A stretch of 64,000 nucleotides of DNA from an uncultured Candidatus Saccharibacteria bacterium. GTDB lineage: Bacteria; Patescibacteriota; Minisyncoccia; UBA6257; JACOXY01. How positions within the stretch are numbered: the first letter of the stretch is position 1; the number at the start of each line of letters is the position of its first letter. The translations under genes were made by a program, and so were the position numbers. Location: positions 24,064 to 88,063 of the forward strand of contig CAYHMC010000005.1 of NCBI GenBank assembly GCA_964357615.1, in the 5' to 3' direction. Under the pieces are notes generated by a model. It worked only from the letters and a program-made list of their open reading frames with translations, ran no database searches and had not been told where the DNA came from. This document shows, piece after piece, positions 3,151-63,799 of this stretch.

Positions 3151-3185
3151 AAAAAATGATTTTCAAAAAAATTTTTTGAAAAAAC
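3151..3185 (+). promoter_or_regulatory. Class-1 upstream motif AAAAATGATTTTCAAAAAAATTTTTTGAAAAA
   Basis: Instance of the window-wide oriented motif, ~5 nt upstream of the ATG at 3189. Confidence 0.5.
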
Positions 3186-3188
3186 AAA

Positions 3189-4541
3189 ATGAGTTATCTC
3201 GATAAATGCGTTGTCAAAACCGATATTATGTTAAGGAAATTGAGACCATCTAGAAACCTTATTATCTTTGTTTACAATCAGAATACTTACATCCCTGTTT
3301 CAAGGGAAGACATGAATACTATTATGAAATCACCCTTCATTAGAAGCAATGAAACCACAAATAAGAACGAAAATTTCTACAAAATTCCAAACGAAATTCA
3401 TGTTGACTCGTCGCTTGAAGAATGTTATCAAGACAGAAATAATACAATGAAGTTAGAACTCAAAGGCAAGTTTAAATACGATGGAAACTCATTCACTTTC
3501 TTTGGTGTTACTCCAATGAAAAGAAAGGAAATAAACGAGTTGAAAGAGAAAGATTTCTTTATCAATCATTTAGCAGACGAAGTAGAAAATGAAGAATCTG
3601 ATGACGATGAAAAGCAGTGGAATAAAATTTCGAAAAAGACAAGAAAAACGGGAGCATTTGTTGATTATTTCAATTTCAATGTAAAACGTATTCAGGTTTA
3701 TGATAATCATGTTTTGAAAGAAGAAAAATGGTTCGAAAATGATGTTTTACACAGGAATGATGACGAAGACGATCTTCCAGCTTATATTGAGTATTATGAT
3801 AATGGTAAAATTAGCGTTGAAAAATGGTATAAGAAAGGAAAACTTCACAGAATGAATAAACCGGCTTGGTTAGAATGGTATGAAAGTGGTGAAAAGAAAG
3901 CGGAAGGATGGTATCAAGAAGGTGTTCATCATACATTGGGTGATAATTGTGATGATCTTCCATGCGCAACTTACTATTATAAAAATGGAAATAAACAAAA
4001 AGATTTTTGGTTTCAAAATGGAAAATTGAATCGAGAAAATGATCTTCCTTCTTGTATTATATACTTTGAAAATGGAAAAAAGAAACAAGAAACATGGTAT
4101 CAGAATGATAAATTACATAGAGATCATGCTCTTCCAGCTGTAATTACTTGCCATGAAAATGGAAATAAGAAAGAAGAAAAATGGTTTAATAATGGTAGAT
4201 TACATAATGACAAAAAACCGGCTTGGATTACATACTTTGAAAATGGAAACAAGGAAGCAGAAGAATGGTGTCAAAATGATAAAATACATAATCATGAAAA
4301 CCCAGCTATTATTATATATTTTGCAAACGGAAATAAGAAAGAAGAAGCATGGTATCAAAATGGAATATTGGAAAGTCCGACGCATGTCACAGAAAATAAG
4401 CTGGTTTTTGAACCAGCTTATTTTCTGTATTTTGAAAATGGAAAAATTCATCTTGAGAAATACTTTGAAAATAATTGTGAAGTGAAAACTATTCATTATA
4501 ATAAACCAAATTGTGGATGTAGTATTCAATATATAAAATAA
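3189..4541 (+). CDS. MORN-repeat protein (450 aa)
   Basis: More than 10 tandem ~23-aa repeats of the form W(Y/F)xNGK(L/I)HRxxDLPAxIxYYENGNKKxE. N-terminal 95 aa is paralogous to the N-terminus of the gene at 39818..41119 (MSY..KC.V.TD...IPNEI..DSSLE.C...NNTMKLELKG). Confidence 0.8.
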   Translation: MSYLDKCVVKTDIMLRKLRPSRNLIIFVYNQNTYIPVSREDMNTIMKSPFIRSNETTNKNENFYKIPNEIHVDSSLEECYQDRNNTMKLELKGKFKYDGNSFTFFGVTPMKRKEINELKEKDFFINHLADEVENEESDDDEKQWNKISKKTRKTGAFVDYFNFNVKRIQVYDNHVLKEEKWFENDVLHRNDDEDDLPAYIEYYDNGKISVEKWYKKGKLHRMNKPAWLEWYESGEKKAEGWYQEGVHHTLGDNCDDLPCATYYYKNGNKQKDFWFQNGKLNRENDLPSCIIYFENGKKKQETWYQNDKLHRDHALPAVITCHENGNKKEEKWFNNGRLHNDKKPAWITYFENGNKEAEEWCQNDKIHNHENPAIIIYFANGNKKEEAWYQNGILESPTHVTENKLVFEPAYFLYFENGKIHLEKYFENNCEVKTIHYNKPNCGCSIQYIK

Positions 4542-4543
4542 TT

Positions 4544-4573
4544 TTTCAAAAAATGATTTTAAAAAAAAATCAT
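4544..4573 (+). promoter_or_regulatory. Class-1 upstream motif TTTCAAAAAATGATTTTAAAAAAAAATCAT
   Basis: Motif instance ~20 nt upstream of ATG 4592; explains the spurious N-terminal extension MILKKNHIKIKIK in the ORF track. Confidence 0.5.
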
Positions 4574-4591
4574 ATCAAAATCAAAATAAAG

Positions 4592-61472: not shown

Positions 61473-61531
61473 TTTAAATTTTAAAAATTTAAAAAATTTT
61501 TAAAATCATTTTTATTTTTTTGTTAACACAA

Positions 61532-62392
61532 TTAGGTTTCTAGTAGCTTAGTTCCATTCTTCCTATAAGAAATAAATGTGGGAAGCACGACGTCACCATT
61601 TTGTTTTCGATATTTTTTGTCTTCGTGATACCAGATTTCGAATCTTTTATTTCTGTTTTTATGAAAACAGATGAAAGCTGGGAGATCAGCACTTTCATCA
61701 GATCCAGATGCATTAATCTTTGATTCACGGCCTTCACGACCTTCACGGTGCTTATTACCATGTTGATACCACATTTGTATCTCTATTTCTCCGTTTTCAA
61801 AATATCCAATACAAGCTGGATTATCATTATCACGATGAAATTTATCATTCTCATCACACCATACTTCGTATTTCTTATTTCCATTTTCGTGATATTGAAT
61901 CCAAGATGGATGTTTATTTTCGGATGACCCACGCTTATCATTGTAATACCAGTCTTCGTGTTTTTTATTTCCATTTTCATAGTATTCAATTATTGCTGGT
62001 TTGTTTTCACGATGCAATCCATGTTCATTATACCATTGATAACTTTTGATTTTTCCATTTTCATAATACGTAATCCAGTTTGGTGGATCGTTCATTGCAT
62101 TCCTCTTTTCTTGAGACAAAGAATCGTATCTCATCCAACCTTCCCATTTTTTATTTCCGTTTTCATAGTAAACAATCCTATCTGGAAGCTTGCTATTTGG
62201 TTCTCTATAAAATTCTTCTTGTTTACTTTCTTTGTCTTCGATCATCCATCTTTCTTCTTTCAATTTTCCTTTCTCATAAATTCGTTCATACCTATATTCA
62301 CCTTTGTCTTCAGTTGTTCTGAAGAACTCAGTGTATTGACCATCTTCGTTTCCTCTAATAATTTTTCGCTTTTCGCAATTTAAATCACTCAT
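61532..62392 (-). CDS. MORN-repeat protein (~287 aa)
   Basis: Repeats WY.ENG...E.WY..G..HR....PA.I.Y.ENG. Track ORF (to 62431) starts at the motif ATG (MNLKIFFKFKSTT); the likely real start is ATG ~62392 (MSDLNCEK). Confidence 0.75.
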   Translation of the reverse strand: MSDLNCEKRKIIRGNEDGQYTEFFRTTEDKGEYRYERIYEKGKLKEERWMIEDKESKQEEFYREPNSKLPDRIVYYENGNKKWEGWMRYDSLSQEKRNAMNDPPNWITYYENGKIKSYQWYNEHGLHRENKPAIIEYYENGNKKHEDWYYNDKRGSSENKHPSWIQYHENGNKKYEVWCDENDKFHRDNDNPACIGYFENGEIEIQMWYQHGNKHREGREGRESKINASGSDESADLPAFICFHKNRNKRFEIWYHEDKKYRKQNGDVVLPTFISYRKNGTKLLET

Positions 62393-62439
62393 TGTTGTTG
62401 ATTTAAATTTAAAAAAAATTTTTAAATTCATTTTTTACT

Positions 62440-63741
62440 TCAGAAATCTTTTTTAACATTGACAAGTTTATAAACCGATTCTGAATCCGTAAAATACTTA
62501 AGCACATATTCATGTGTATCAAGCTTGATCTTCCTTTCTTTGCACATTTTCCAAATTTTCTTAAACAAGTCTGGATTTCGCTTTATTAGAACTGCATCTA
62601 AACACGTCAAGCCGAACACATCTGTTAAATTTGGATCTGCACCGTTGTTCAAACAGAGTTCAAACCCTGTGATATCTTCAGATTGAATAAAATGAAAAAT
62701 AGGGGTGCATGTATATTTGTTTTTCTTTCCTTTAGTTTGAAACTGTAAGTTTATATTTGAAACGTTTTGACAAATTCTTAACACATCTTTCATTGTGGTT
62801 TCTTTTTCATTCTTATTCTCGGCTTCGTTATCGTTTAAATTAGAGTATATACGTGGAGGATGCTTAACTAAACCTTCTTTTCTAAGAGTTTCAATTGCAA
62901 TTTCTGAAGCCTTTTGTTCTGCATCTGGTTGAATCGATGCAACTGAAACTGCAATTATGTTTTGTCTTCCAGTTCCTCTCACAATTTTATTAAAATCTGA
63001 AGTTCCGTCTTGTTTGGTTTGATAAACTGCGTTTACAGTTCTGACAATTTGACATGTTACAAGCTGTTCTTTGCGTTCAAATCTCGTTTCGAGAGTTCCA
63101 ATTTCTTTTGGAAGCATATCTCTAAGTTCTTTCAATCTAGTTATAGAATCGTAAAGATCTTCGTATTTGAAAGAGAAAACAACCTTCTCAAAGAAATATT
63201 CTAGAATCTTTTCAGCTATCGAGTATCCGATTCTAAGATTGTATTTGGTAATGTATTCATCCTTGAACTCATTCATGATTTGAACAACTGTTCCAATGAA
63301 AGCTTCAAGTGTATCTTCAAGAAGCTTTTTCTTCTTTGTTTGTCTTGTGCTGATATCAGCTGAGATATAGTTCCAAAATCCATTGTCTTCAGCAATTTTT
63401 GCAAGTTCGTTTTTAGAGACGTAATTGATCTTCAATCTTGCAACTATTTTAACACATTCTGAACTCTGAAATTTTGGAAACTTTCTATAGATATAGGAAA
63501 CGAGAAATGCGTTGAAGAACCCGTCACCGATATGCTCTGAATACTCATAATTATTTTTCACATCTACGGTCTCGCATGTAAAAGCGTTAGAAAATCTAAT
63601 AAAATTTTCTTTGTTCAAAAGGAAACTGATGTGTTCCTTTTGAAGTTTTGCATTTTCAAAAATCTTATTTAAGAAATTTTTGAAATCATTCTTTCGTTCA
63701 CCAAGGTATACACCTTTTTCAAATTGAATTTTGCTGTCCAT
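62440..63741 (-). CDS. Ribonuclease III with C-terminal ankyrin-like repeat
   Basis: N-terminal YSEHIGDGFFNAFLVSYIY (RNase III signature ERLEFLGDA...) and LEDTLEAFIGTVVQI (second RNase III motif .DALEALIGAIYLD). C-terminal ...LCLNNGADPNLTDVFGLTCLDAVL (ankyrin-like). Class-1 motif upstream (63745..63790). Confidence 0.65.
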   Translation of the reverse strand: MDSKIQFEKGVYLGERKNDFKNFLNKIFENAKLQKEHISFLLNKENFIRFSNAFTCETVDVKNNYEYSEHIGDGFFNAFLVSYIYRKFPKFQSSECVKIVARLKINYVSKNELAKIAEDNGFWNYISADISTRQTKKKKLLEDTLEAFIGTVVQIMNEFKDEYITKYNLRIGYSIAEKILEYFFEKVVFSFKYEDLYDSITRLKELRDMLPKEIGTLETRFERKEQLVTCQIVRTVNAVYQTKQDGTSDFNKIVRGTGRQNIIAVSVASIQPDAEQKASEIAIETLRKEGLVKHPPRIYSNLNDNEAENKNEKETTMKDVLRICQNVSNINLQFQTKGKKNKYTCTPIFHFIQSEDITGFELCLNNGADPNLTDVFGLTCLDAVLIKRNPDLFKKIWKMCKERKIKLDTHEYVLKYFTDSESVYKLVNVKKDF

Positions 63742-63799
63742 TTTAGTTTTTTAAAAAAAAAAAATTTTAAAATCATTTTTTTTTAAAAATTTTTTAAAT

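What the first reader, a model, noticed from the sequence alone, without database searches (positions are those of the whole stretch)
3151..63790. Window-wide oriented upstream motif TTTTTAAAAATGA(T/A)TTTTAAAAATTTTTT (class 1), likely an early-type promoter; its internal ATG creates false N-terminal extensions
About 30 genes carry, 10-45 nt upstream of their ATG and always in the gene's own orientation, a near-identical A/T element whose core is AAAAATGATTTT or AAAAATGAATTT, followed by an AAAATTTTTT half-palindrome and an A-run. Examples are 3151-3185, 4544-4573, 10581-10620, 12407-12445, 13341-13380, 14007-14042, 15251-15290, 15990-16026, 16848-16885, 17825-17862, 21277-21322, 22273-22325, 24706-24745, 29808-29843, 33820-33860, 38951-38990, 41122-41160, 41895-41930, 45841-45875, 46722-46757, 47795-47837, 60050-60090, 61480-61520, 62400-62440 and 63745-63790. 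One instance (39768-39810) reads AAAATTGATTT, which contains the mimivirus/CroV early octamer AAAATTGA, so the element looks like a one-base-shorter relative of the Imitervirales early promoter. The associated genes are mostly enzymes and host-interaction genes: RPB2, RPB5, both kinases, RING, VETF-like and A18-like helicases, RNase III, and the MORN, LRR and DUF4116 genes. Because the motif contains ATG in frame with a long A/T-encoded K/F/I tract, the six-frame track over-extends many ORFs. Examples are MIFKFFFKKLK-MESQ, MILIFFSKKKLK-METH, MILKKNHIKIKIK-MEKRR, MNLKIFFKFKSTT-MSDL, and the 22353 start of the 21331 gene.
Basis: partly seen in the sequence, partly recalled or inferred. Interest (0 to 1): 0.65.

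Follow-up and report, generated by a model that had tools for sequence, protein, structure and literature searches.

The report
Giant-virus early-type promoter motif AAAAATGA
An uncultured groundwater giant virus puts a near-identical 23-base A/T-rich signal (core AAAAATGA) about 32 bases before 26 of its 65 genes; this is a lineage variant of the known giant-virus early promoter, and its built-in ATG fools gene callers into adding about 12 false amino acids to some proteins.

Summary
The core AAAATGAWTT lies in sense orientation upstream of 25 genes, against 0.88±0.94 in dinucleotide shuffles of the same 83%-A/T upstream regions. One further gene has AAAATTGATTTC in the same place. The T of TGA sits 31-42 nt (mode 32-33) before the real ATG. 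The conserved block is AAAAATGA(T/A)TTT(w)AAAA(a)TTTTTT.

The 26 genes fall into 14 sequence families, so the count of independent cases is lower, but no family mixes classes. An 81%-identical RPB2 relative uses AAAAATGATTTT and AAAATTGATTTT interchangeably at the same position, and the promoter class of orthologues is conserved. More distant relatives carry AAATTGA 30-44 nt upstream.

The octamer AAAAATGA is already published as the putative early promoter of Aureococcus anophagefferens virus, so this is a new member of a known kind. Only the 3' extension is lineage-specific. Early timing is inferred, not shown.

The false N-terminal extensions are confirmed: 5 of 25 motif ATGs are in frame and open, and a public RPB2 entry of 1149 aa starts at one. 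Two details are not supported: "one base shorter" (a one-base substitution fits as well and is the published description) and the "VETF-like" label (only a generic SF2 helicase was shown).

The parts
3152..3174 (+). class-1 element AAAAATGATTTTCAAAAAAATTT; T of TGA 32 nt before the ATG of gene 3189-4541 (450 aa, MORN-like family)
   Evidence: family
4549..4571 (+). class-1 element before gene 4592-5362 (256 aa). The motif ATG at 4553 is in frame and open, giving the false extension MILKKNHIKIKIK.
   Evidence: the source contig's gene call is 256 aa
10595..10617 (-). class-1 element, 42 nt before protein kinase gene 8837-10570
12421..12443 (-). class-1 element, 41 nt before protein kinase gene 10646-12397; lies in a divergent intergenic region shared with 12449+
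13356..13378 (-). class-1 element, 33 nt before RPB5 gene 12813-13340
14014..14036 (-). class-1 element, 33 nt before RING-finger gene 13384-13998
15252..15274 (-). class-1 element, 33 nt before gene 14880-15236 (118 aa)
16004..16026 (-). class-1 element (TGAATTT variant), 32 nt before DUF4116 gene 15309-15989
16862..16884 (-). class-1 element (TGAATTT variant), 32 nt before DUF4116 gene 16026-16847; starts directly after the upstream stop codon (35-nt gap)
17838..17860 (-). class-1 element (TGAATTT variant), 31 nt before DUF4116 gene 16883-17824
21291..21313 (-). class-1 element, 35 nt before RPB2 gene 17860-21273. The motif ATG (21309-21307) is in frame and open, giving the false extension MILIFFSKKKLK.
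   Evidence: public entry P0001 is 1149 aa against P0002 at 1137 aa, and homologue N-termini agree with the short form
22287..22309 (-). class-1 element, 32 nt before DUF4116 gene 21331-22272. It gives the false extension MIFNFFQKKIK, and a further TTG start at 22353. Lies in a divergent intergenic region.
   Evidence: the DUF7666 Pfam match starts at residue 1 of the short form
24714..24736 (+). class-1 element (TGAATTT variant), 31 nt before gene 24750-26270 (506 aa)
   Evidence: the orthologue in L004 carries AAAATTGATTTTT
29805..29827 (-). class-1 element, 32 nt before DUF2738 gene 28780-29790
   Evidence: the orthologue in L004 carries AAAAATGATTTTT
33823..33845 (-). class-1 element, 33 nt before the 720-aa SF2 helicase gene 31645-33807; divergent intergenic region
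38953..38975 (-). class-1 element (CAAAATGA), 33 nt before the XPB/Rad25-like helicase gene 37666-38937; divergent intergenic region
39779..39801 (-). variant element AAAATTGATTTCAAAAAAAAATT (canonical mimivirus octamer), 32 nt before gene 39285-39764 (159 aa, MORN-like family)
41136..41158 (-). class-1 element, 34 nt before MORN-like gene 39818-41119
41901..41923 (-). class-1 element, 40 nt before MORN-like gene 41162-41878
45838..45860 (+). class-1 element, 33 nt before DUF4116 gene 45876-46508
46722..46744 (+). class-1 element, 31 nt before the frameshifted DUF4116 gene 46758-47631; part of a duplicated segment
47801..47823 (+). class-1 element, 32 nt before gene 47838-48389 (183 aa). The motif ATG at 47805 gives the false extension MIFKFFFKKLK. 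Part of the duplicated segment.
60060..60082 (-). class-1 element, 33 nt before MORN-like gene 59199-60044
61491..61513 (-). class-1 element, 36 nt before LRR + RING gene 60084-61472
62413..62435 (-). class-1 element (TGAATTT variant), 38 nt before gene 61532-62392 (286 aa). The motif ATG (62431) gives the false extension MNLKIFFKFKSTT.
63758..63780 (-). class-1 element, 34 nt before RNase III gene 62440-63741

Best explanation
The element is the core promoter of one temporal class of genes, most probably early, of an uncultured nucleocytoplasmic large DNA virus. The virus is probably in Imitervirales and the contig comes from a Hainich H41 groundwater metagenome.

The element is a lineage variant of the conserved giant-virus early promoter AAAA(N)TGA, which appears as:
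- AAAATTGA in mimivirus, CroV and BsV;
- AAAAATGA in Aureococcus anophagefferens virus (AaV);
- AAAANTGAAAA in poxviruses.

Shown here: a discrete, oriented element of about 23 bp, AAAAATGA(T/A)TTT(w)AAAA(a)TTTTTT, at a fixed distance before 26 of 65 genes. It is conserved in position and in gene-class assignment in relatives, and it is interchangeable with AAAATTGA.

Inferred:
- A virus-encoded early transcription factor and the viral RNA polymerase bind the core.
- Transcription starts about 14-22 nt downstream of the TGA, in the T-run to A-run region. This is by analogy with vaccinia (core at -13 to -25 from the start site) and IIV-6 (AAAATTGATTATTTGTTTT at -19 to -2).
- That leaves an A-rich leader of about 10-18 nt.
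- The motif's ATG would then lie upstream of the transcript and would never be translated, so N-terminal extensions starting at it are annotation artefacts.
For: Enrichment and discreteness:
- 25 sense sites against 0.88±0.94 in shuffles of the same upstream regions.
- AAAAATGA is the top unbiased 8-mer.
- No intermediate-scoring sites in the matrix scan.

Orientation and spacing:
- 25 of 25 sites are in sense orientation.
- T of TGA to ATG is 31-42 nt, mode 32-33.
- Intergenic gaps of motif genes are at least 35 nt, while motif-less genes go down to 0-30 nt.

Not tied to 3' ends: four sites lie in divergent intergenic regions.

Comparative evidence:
- RPB2 of the 81% relative keeps AAAAATGATTTC at 32 nt. 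The 56% relative has AAAAATTGA at the same place.
- In L004/L005 both octamers are used at the same distance.
- All three orthologues of motif genes whose upstream region is visible keep a motif (RPB2, DUF2738, the 486/506-aa protein), and eight neighbouring genes that lack it in the window lack it there too.
- AAATTGA peaks 30-44 nt upstream in 80 distant loci.
- 50 of 78 RPB2 orthologues have AAAWTGA upstream, against 9 in the antisense control.

Literature:
- The AaV octamer AAAAATGA is in 47.5% of genes expressed by 6 h against 22% of late genes (PMC5917014).
- Poxvirus consensus and IIV-6 positions (PMC5294985).
- BsV and ChlorV motifs.

Gene content:
- Motif genes are RNA polymerase subunits, kinases, RING and LRR proteins, helicases, RNase III and repeat families.
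- Motif-less genes include glycosyltransferases, small membrane proteins weakly resembling minor capsid proteins (below Pfam thresholds), protease, patatin and PAP2.
- No paralogue family is mixed.

The motif ATG is not a start codon:
- 20 of 25 are out of frame or closed by a stop.
- Homologue N-termini support the short RPB2.
Against: - There are no expression or 5'-end data for this virus, so 'early' and the start-site position are inferences.
- In AaV the association with early genes is only about 2-fold, and 22% of late genes also carry the octamer.
- In mimivirus-type viruses the polymerase subunits are packaged, so their genes need not be strictly early.
- Paralogue families and one duplicated segment inflate the count.
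- No recognising factor was identified. The 720-aa helicase could not be linked to vaccinia VETF.
- Placement in Imitervirales rests on Pfam DUF families and on the relatives' motifs, not on a phylogeny.
Confidence: 0.75

Rival explanations
1. It is a genuine viral promoter, but not an early one. It could be a constitutive or intermediate-class core promoter, or one whose timing differs from the mimivirus and AaV precedent.
For: The AaV association is modest: 47.5% of early genes against 22% of late genes. RNA polymerase subunit genes (RPB2, RPB5) carry it, and in viruses that package their polymerase such genes can be expressed late (general knowledge, not tested here).
Against: The element has the same position and near-identical sequence as the element tied to early genes in mimivirus, CroV and AaV. 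Genes with likely structural, glycosylation or membrane roles lack it and carry a different signature at the start codon.
Confidence: 0.17
2. It is an RNA hairpin or 3'-end processing signal (the Mimiviridae 'hairpin rule') for the upstream gene, made of A/T palindromes such as AAAAAT-G-ATTTTT and AAAAAATTTTTT.
For: The core is a 6+1+6 palindrome and is followed by AnTn palindromes (sequence). 21 of 26 sites lie downstream of a same-strand gene.
Against: - The distance is fixed to the downstream ATG, not to the upstream stop codon; gaps range from 35 to 249 nt.
- Four sites are in divergent intergenic regions that contain no 3' end.
- Orientation follows the downstream gene.
- Predicted RNA folds are weak (-3 to -9 kcal/mol). 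Five of six do not differ from shuffles, and there is no common structure.
Confidence: 0.03
3. It is a non-functional repeat that spread by gene duplication or as a small mobile element.
For: 12 of 26 genes belong to two expanded families. The two kinase genes have similar upstream regions. One segment of about 110 nt that includes the promoter is duplicated.
Against: - The element precedes 14 unrelated families, including single-copy core genes (RPB2, RPB5, RNase III).
- Flanking sequence is not conserved.
- It is retained at orthologous genes in an 81% relative whose flanking sequence has diverged, and it is replaced by AAAATTGA at the same site in others.
- Spacing to the ATG is constant.
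Confidence: 0.03
4. The motif ATG is a real start codon that encodes short hydrophobic and basic leaders (MIFKFFFKK...) or upstream ORFs.
For: Five motif ATGs are in frame and open. Public annotation uses one for RPB2.
Against: - 20 of 25 are out of frame or are followed by a stop within about 8 codons.
- RPB2 homologues start 6-10 residues before the conserved EExYIW block with unrelated residues.
- DUF4116 paralogues all start with MQYYK, and the Pfam DUF7666 match starts at residue 1 of the short form.
- The 'peptides' are simply translations of the A/T signal.
Confidence: 0.02

Closest known systems
Aureococcus anophagefferens virus (AaV) putative early promoter, octamer AAAAATGA (Moniruzzaman et al. 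2018, PMC5917014)
   Same: The octamer is identical. It is the top upstream 8-mer here (24 of 65 genes), and 20 of 25 sites also have the T after TGA. The share of genes is similar, and both genomes are A/T-rich (window 29.9% G+C; AaV about 29%, from memory).
   Different: AaV's extended consensus [AT]4AAAAATGAT[ATG][AG][AC]AAA[AT] has zero matches in the window. Here the 3' part is TTT(w)AAAA(a)TTTTTT. Whether the two viruses are related was not established: no named isolate appears among the best 120 RPB2 hits. Timing data exist for AaV and not for this virus.
Mimivirus / CroV / BsV / ChlorV early promoter AAAA(A)TTGA (Suhre 2005; Fischer 2010)
   Same: It is an oriented A/T-rich octamer ending in TGA, about 30-45 nt before the start codon of 35-50% of genes. 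In relatives' loci AAATTGA peaks 30-44 nt upstream. One site in the window (39779-39801) and about one third of the sites in the sister genome use it at the same spacing.
   Different: The base before TGA is A in 25 of 26 sites. AAAATTGA is depleted in the window (14 against 34.8 expected), although it has been described as a 'strictly conserved' hallmark of Mimiviridae (PMC6163669).
Poxvirus early promoter core AAAANTGAAAA, recognised by VETF (Davison & Moss 1989, as reviewed in PMC5294985)
   Same: It fits AAAANTGA with N = A and sits in an A/T-rich context a short distance before the start codon.
   Different: TGA is followed by TTTT and then AAAA, not directly by an A-run; only 6 AAAANTGAAAA matches occur in the window. 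The position relative to the transcription start site is unknown. No VETF homologue was demonstrated.
Invertebrate iridescent virus 6 DNA polymerase promoter AAAATTGATTATTTGTTTT (-19 to -2; reviewed in PMC5294985)
   Same: It has AAAA(T/A)TGATT followed by a T-rich stretch. This is the closest published match to the TGATTTT 3' half.
   Different: It is a single characterised promoter in a different order of viruses, and it carries T rather than A before TGA.

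Membership tests
Imitervirales (Mimiviridae sensu lato) early promoter | High prevalence of the exact octamer AAAATTGA upstream of genes | tested here: not met
   1 of 26 sites. AAAATTGA occurs 14 times against 34.8±5.2 expected in the window.
Imitervirales (Mimiviridae sensu lato) early promoter | Oriented A-rich octamer ending in TGA, a few tens of nt before the start codon of about 35-50% of genes | tested here: met
   26 of 65 genes (40%), all in sense orientation, T of TGA 31-42 nt before the ATG. AAATTGA in relatives peaks 30-44 nt upstream.
Imitervirales (Mimiviridae sensu lato) early promoter | Positional equivalence with AAAATTGA at orthologous genes in relatives | tested here: met
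   RPB2 upstream regions: the 56% relative has AAAAATTGA at the same distance. The sister genome mixes both octamers. 50 of 78 RPB2 orthologues carry AAAWTGA upstream, against 9 in the antisense control.
Imitervirales (Mimiviridae sensu lato) early promoter | Association with genes transcribed early in infection | not testable with these tools
   The virus is uncultured and no transcriptome is available. Only gene content is suggestive.
AaV-type early promoter | Octamer AAAAATGA enriched upstream of genes | tested here: met
   24 upstream regions in sense against 4 antisense, and 2.8±1.6 in shuffles.
AaV-type early promoter | Extended consensus [AT]4AAAAATGAT[ATG][AG][AC]AAA[AT] | tested here: not met
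   0 matches in the window. The 3' half here is TTT(w)AAAA(a)TTTTTT.
Poxvirus early promoter / VETF system | Core AAAANTGAAAA | tested here: inconclusive
   The AAAANTGA half is met in all 26 sites. The A-run directly after TGA is not: T at +3 in 20 of 25 and at +4 to +6 in 24-25 of 25.
Poxvirus early promoter / VETF system | Core at about -13 to -25 from the transcription start site | not testable with these tools
   No 5'-end data.
Poxvirus early promoter / VETF system | Genome encodes VETF subunit homologues (D6-like ATPase, A7-like) | tested here: inconclusive
   The 720-aa protein (31645-33807) has SF2 helicase motifs. It has no PDB sequence hit, either alone or as a 24-sequence profile. 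The best Foldseek hits of a confident model (pLDDT 87) are generic SF2 helicases. Only 64 kb of the genome was examined.

The most novel reading that the evidence does not exclude
This lineage may have shifted the sequence preference of its early transcription factor. The base before TGA is A in 25 of 26 sites here and mixed in the 81% sister genome (about 9 sites with A and 6 with T). Other clades use T, or AAAACGGA.

The element also has a lineage-specific three-part, A/T-phased architecture: a palindromic core AAAAAT-G-ATTTTT whose direction depends on a single central G, then AAAA, then TTTTTT.

If so, these metagenomic genomes would form a natural series for studying how promoter and transcription factor co-evolve in giant viruses. 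Strict AAAATTGA would then not be a reliable diagnostic for Imitervirales.
Probability: 0.25. Interest if true: 0.45.

Novelty: new member of a known kind. Interest (0 to 1): 0.3.

Why it matters
It matters mainly for annotation and for comparative work.

1. Gene callers that take the longest ORF add 11-13 spurious residues to proteins whose motif ATG happens to be in frame. This has already happened: a public RPB2 entry for this virus is 1149 aa instead of 1137 aa, a relative's RPB2 begins with a motif-derived extension, and two genes in the sister genome appear to be called from motif ATGs.
2. The motif splits the genes of an uncultured giant virus into two regulatory classes without any expression data.
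3. Together with AaV and the sister genome that uses both octamers, it shows that the base before TGA in the "strictly conserved" Mimiviridae early promoter is variable. Motif-based screens for such viruses should search for AAAAWTGA.

It does not reveal a new kind of regulatory system.

Tried and rejected
- The search for related loci with the single RPB2 protein in IMG/VR found no relative. The alignment-based scan worked but reached only 35-45% identity, so the lineage is not represented in IMG/VR.
- Scanning IMG/VR for the extended pattern gave 14 isolated single hits and no cluster.
Only other Hainich H41 contigs were dense in the motif: L169 has 6 further canonical sites.
- Testing the 'VETF-like' label: phmmer and a 24-sequence profile against PDB gave no hit, NCBIfam gave none, and Foldseek gave only generic SF2 helicases. 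The label is left unverified.
- Looking for reference giant-virus genomes in the 'phages' collection found only a mollivirus-like record at 29% identity and phage or bacterial rpoB sequences. No phylogenetic placement relative to AaV was possible.
- The strain variants L002 and L003 are 99.99-100% identical to the window, so there are no polymorphisms with which to test selection on the motif.
- The RNA-hairpin reading was rejected after folding six sites.
- Suhre et al. 2005 is not held in the library, so the position of the mimivirus motif was taken from reviews and from my own measurement in relatives.
- One Pfam call failed because the 46758 gene is frameshifted. It was repeated with corrected coordinates.

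Full report
**Source and gene model**

The window has 29.9% G+C. An exact protein look-up places it on a metagenome contig, ENA ERZ1292624 "Hain_H41_01um_R3_270_length_81422".

I built a simple non-overlapping ORF model of 65 genes and annotated it with Pfam. The content is typical of a nucleocytoplasmic large DNA virus:
- RPB2, RPB5, eukaryote-type topoisomerase IB, RNase III and two Ser/Thr kinases;
- RING and LRR proteins and a DUF4116/DUF7666 multigene family;
- SF2 helicases, a D12 methyltransferase and glycosyltransferases;
- DUF5891, DUF5754, DUF5770 and DUF2738.

RPB2 has a 100% match in public databases, relatives at 80-81%, and then nothing above 57%. No named isolate is among the best 120 hits.

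Yes. Every listed site is present.
- AAAATGAWTT occurs 30 times, against 9.2±2.6 in whole-window dinucleotide shuffles.
- The stricter control is shuffling the 70-nt upstream regions themselves, which are 83% A/T. That gives 0.88±0.94 (maximum 5 in 1000), against 25 observed in sense orientation.
- The 4 antisense occurrences are the same sites seen from a divergent neighbour.
- The 5 remaining matches are inside coding sequence and lack the rest of the element.
- An unbiased count of 8-mers in upstream regions returns AAAAATGA as the top G/C-containing word (24 sense, 4 antisense).

Aligned on TGA, conservation extends well beyond the search pattern. A is found at -5/-4 in 24-25 of 25 sites, T at +6 in 24 of 25, and A at +8/+9 in 24-25 of 25. 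A T-run follows at +12 to +17, and then an A-run leads to the ATG. The consensus is AAAAATGA(T in 20, A in 5)TTT(w)AAAA(a)TTTTTT.

The T of TGA lies 31-42 nt before the gene's ATG, with a mode of 32-33. A position-weight-matrix scan finds no weaker copies before other genes. Training sites score at least 15.6 bits, and the next-best hits are the C-centred reverse readings of the same palindromes. The class is therefore discrete: 25 sites plus the single AAAATTGATTTC site at 39779-39801, which has the modal spacing of 32 nt.

**Corrections to the finding**

- The number is 26 of 65 genes, not about 30.
- The 26 genes form only 14 BLASTP families: DUF4116 (6), a MORN-like family (6), kinases (2), RING (2) and 10 singletons.
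- The promoters at 46722 and 47801 belong to a duplicated segment of about 110 nt.
- Fourteen independent families are still far above chance, and no family mixes motif and non-motif genes.

**What it is**

The evidence points to a promoter:
- The orientation always follows the downstream gene.
- The distance is fixed to the downstream ATG and not to the upstream stop codon. Gaps range from 35 to 249 nt, and in the shortest gaps the element starts right after the previous stop codon.
- Four sites lie in divergent intergenic regions, where no gene ends.
- RNA folds of six sites are weak (-3 to -9 kcal/mol). Five of the six do not differ from shuffles, and they share no structure. This argues against a hairpin or 3'-end signal.

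Comparative data are the strongest argument.
- Before RPB2, the 81% relative (L004/L005) has AAAAATGATTTCAAAA 32 nt before the ATG in otherwise diverged sequence.
- A 56% relative (L006, 42% G+C) has AAAAATTGAAAAA at the same place, and a 52% relative (L007) has AAAAATGAAATTT.
- Across L004/L005, AAAAATGATTTT and AAAATTGATTTT are used interchangeably at the same distance, roughly 9 to 6.
- Promoter class is conserved for orthologues. RPB2, DUF2738 and the 486/506-aa protein carry a motif. The methyltransferase, the C1 peptidase, the HMG-box protein, the cobalamin adenosyltransferase, DUF5891 and small ORFs do not.
- In 80 IMG/VR loci with RPB2 at 35-45% identity, many use AAAATTGA. Some lineages use other words: TAAATTGAA in 12 of 18 genes of L007, and AAAACGGAT in four loci.
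- In these loci the T of TGA in AAATTGA peaks 30-44 nt before start codons, which is the same window as here.
- 50 of 78 RPB2 orthologues have AAAWTGA upstream, against 9 in the antisense control. The loci closest to the window (L008, L010-L016) tend to have the A form.

**Comparison with the literature**

- The octamer AAAAATGA is already published as the putative early promoter of Aureococcus anophagefferens virus. It was found by discriminative MEME on a time-course transcriptome, in 47.5% of genes expressed by 6 h against 22% of late genes. The authors describe it as one mismatch from AAAATTGA (PMC5917014; also cited in PMC12700378).
- AAAATTGA or AAAAATTGA is the early motif of mimivirus, CroV, BsV and ChlorV. 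It has been called a "strictly conserved" hallmark of Mimiviridae (PMC6163669).
- The poxvirus early consensus is AAAANTGAAAA, with the critical core at -13 to -25 from the start site. The IIV-6 DNA polymerase promoter AAAATTGATTATTTGTTTT lies at -19 to -2 (PMC5294985).
- In this window AAAATTGA is depleted (14 against 34.8 expected), and AaV's extended consensus has no match.
- The octamer is therefore shared with AaV, while the TTT(w)AAAA(a)TTTTTT extension is specific to this lineage.
- The extended pattern occurs at 7 sites in the window (11 overlapping matches). It gives only isolated single hits in IMG/VR. In the metagenome scan it is dense only in other Hainich H41 contigs.

**Mechanism**

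The oriented, positioned, conserved element is shown; the rest is inferred. By analogy with vaccinia and IIV-6, transcription would start about 14-22 nt downstream of the TGA. That places the start in the T-run to A-run region and leaves an A-rich leader of about 10-18 nt. The motif ATG would then not be in the mRNA.

Gene content is consistent with an early class. Polymerase subunits, kinases, ubiquitin-ligase-type RING proteins, helicases, RNase III and repeat families carry the element. Genes for glycosylation and small membrane proteins weakly resembling minor capsid proteins (below Pfam thresholds), and the protease, patatin and PAP2 genes, do not. Timing itself is not tested.

One anatomical point is worth noting. 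In 20 of 25 sites the core AAAAAT-G-ATTTTT is a 6+1+6 palindrome, so direction is encoded only by the central G and by the asymmetric flanks.

**False N-terminal extensions**

These are confirmed.
- Five of 25 motif ATGs are in frame and open: 4553, 21309, 22305, 47805 and 62431. The other 20 are out of frame or closed by a stop.
- The public RPB2 entry P0001 (sources NCBI and ENA) is 1149 aa and begins MILIFFSKKKLK-METH. The 99% variant P0002 is 1137 aa. Homologues begin 6-10 unrelated residues before the conserved EExYIW block.
- The 80% relative P0005 begins MISNFFKLKFE-M, which is the translation of its own motif.
- Two L004 genes appear to be called from motif ATGs.
- DUF4116 paralogues all start with MQYYK, and the Pfam DUF7666 match begins at residue 1 of the short form.

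- "One base shorter" is unnecessary. With an A-run of at least 5 in 24 of 25 sites and identical TGA-to-ATG spacing for both octamers, a substitution at the base before TGA fits as well.
- "VETF-like" for the 720-aa protein is unverified. It has SF2 helicase motifs, but there is no PDB sequence match, either alone or as a profile. A confident model (pLDDT 87) matches only generic SF2 helicases.
- The 423-aa helicase is XPB/Rad25-like. This is compatible with "A18-like" but does not prove it.
- The MORN hits are below Pfam thresholds.

**Verdict**

This is a real, clean, lineage-specific version of a known regulatory element, so it is a new member of a known kind. Its practical value lies in start-codon correction and in classifying the genes of an uncultured giant virus. 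It also adds a documented case, including a sister genome caught using both forms, showing that the Imitervirales early octamer is AAAAWTGA rather than strictly AAAATTGA.

Noticed in passing
window-wide: start codons of the 39 genes without the class-1 element (e.g. 933, 5942-, 8797-, 26296, 52194, 54560): ATAA(A)(A) lies directly against the ATG in 20 of 39 motif-less genes and in 2 of 25 motif genes (Fisher p = 3.7e-4). This second upstream signature resembles the poxvirus TAAATG late initiator and may be a late-class signal.
   Followed up: partly
46758-47631 +: A DUF4116 gene is interrupted by a frameshift. A 41-aa ORF starting MQYYKVL (46758-46883) continues in another frame (46828-47631). 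It is either a pseudogene or an assembly error, and it keeps an intact class-1 promoter.
   Followed up: partly
46620-46757 and 47698-47837 +: A segment of about 110 nt is duplicated. It contains a perfect 15+15 palindrome, TTTACGATACCAGAATTCTGGTATCGTAAA, immediately 5' of the promoter and is preceded by decayed DUF4116 repeat remnants. The palindrome is a candidate 3'-end hairpin of the Mimiviridae 'hairpin rule' type.
   Followed up: no
52194-59118 +: Three tandem paralogous large ORFs (779, 762 and 744 aa) have no Pfam match. All three lack the class-1 element and have the ATAAA-ATG signature.
   Followed up: no
5964-7595 -: A eukaryote-type DNA topoisomerase IB (Topoisom_I_N, Topoisom_I and Topo_C_assoc domains; E = 2e-57) is encoded without the class-1 element.
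   Followed up: no
L047, L054, L059, L080 and L007 (IMG/VR and JGI loci around RPB2): Other giant-virus lineages show different dominant upstream words. AAAACGGA(T) is the most frequent in four loci, and TAAATTGAA precedes 12 of 18 genes in L007. This suggests several lineage-specific versions of the early element.
   Followed up: partly
P0001, P0005; L004:13388 and L004:15442: Public gene calls for this virus and its relatives start at motif ATGs: RPB2 at 1149 aa, a relative's RPB2 beginning MISNFFKLKFE-M, and two L004 genes whose called start reads ATGATTTT and which appear to be of the same kind. The annotation artefact is already in the databases.
   Followed up: yes
L169 (ERZ1292625 Hain-H41-01um-R1 contig, 6871 nt): 2766, 3285, 3856, 4386, 5167, 6677 (-): Six more canonical class-1 elements with the same spacing lie on another contig from the same site. 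That contig does not overlap the window, so the motif extends beyond the 64-kb window in this virus population.
   Followed up: partly
31645-33807 -: The 720-aa protein gives a confident structural model (pLDDT 87, pTM 0.80). It has an SF2 helicase core plus N- and C-terminal beta-rich domains, about 40 homologues in the protein search (E <= 1e-5) that come only from metagenome and sequencing-run assemblies and carry no informative name, and no specific match in the PDB. Its function is open.
   Followed up: partly
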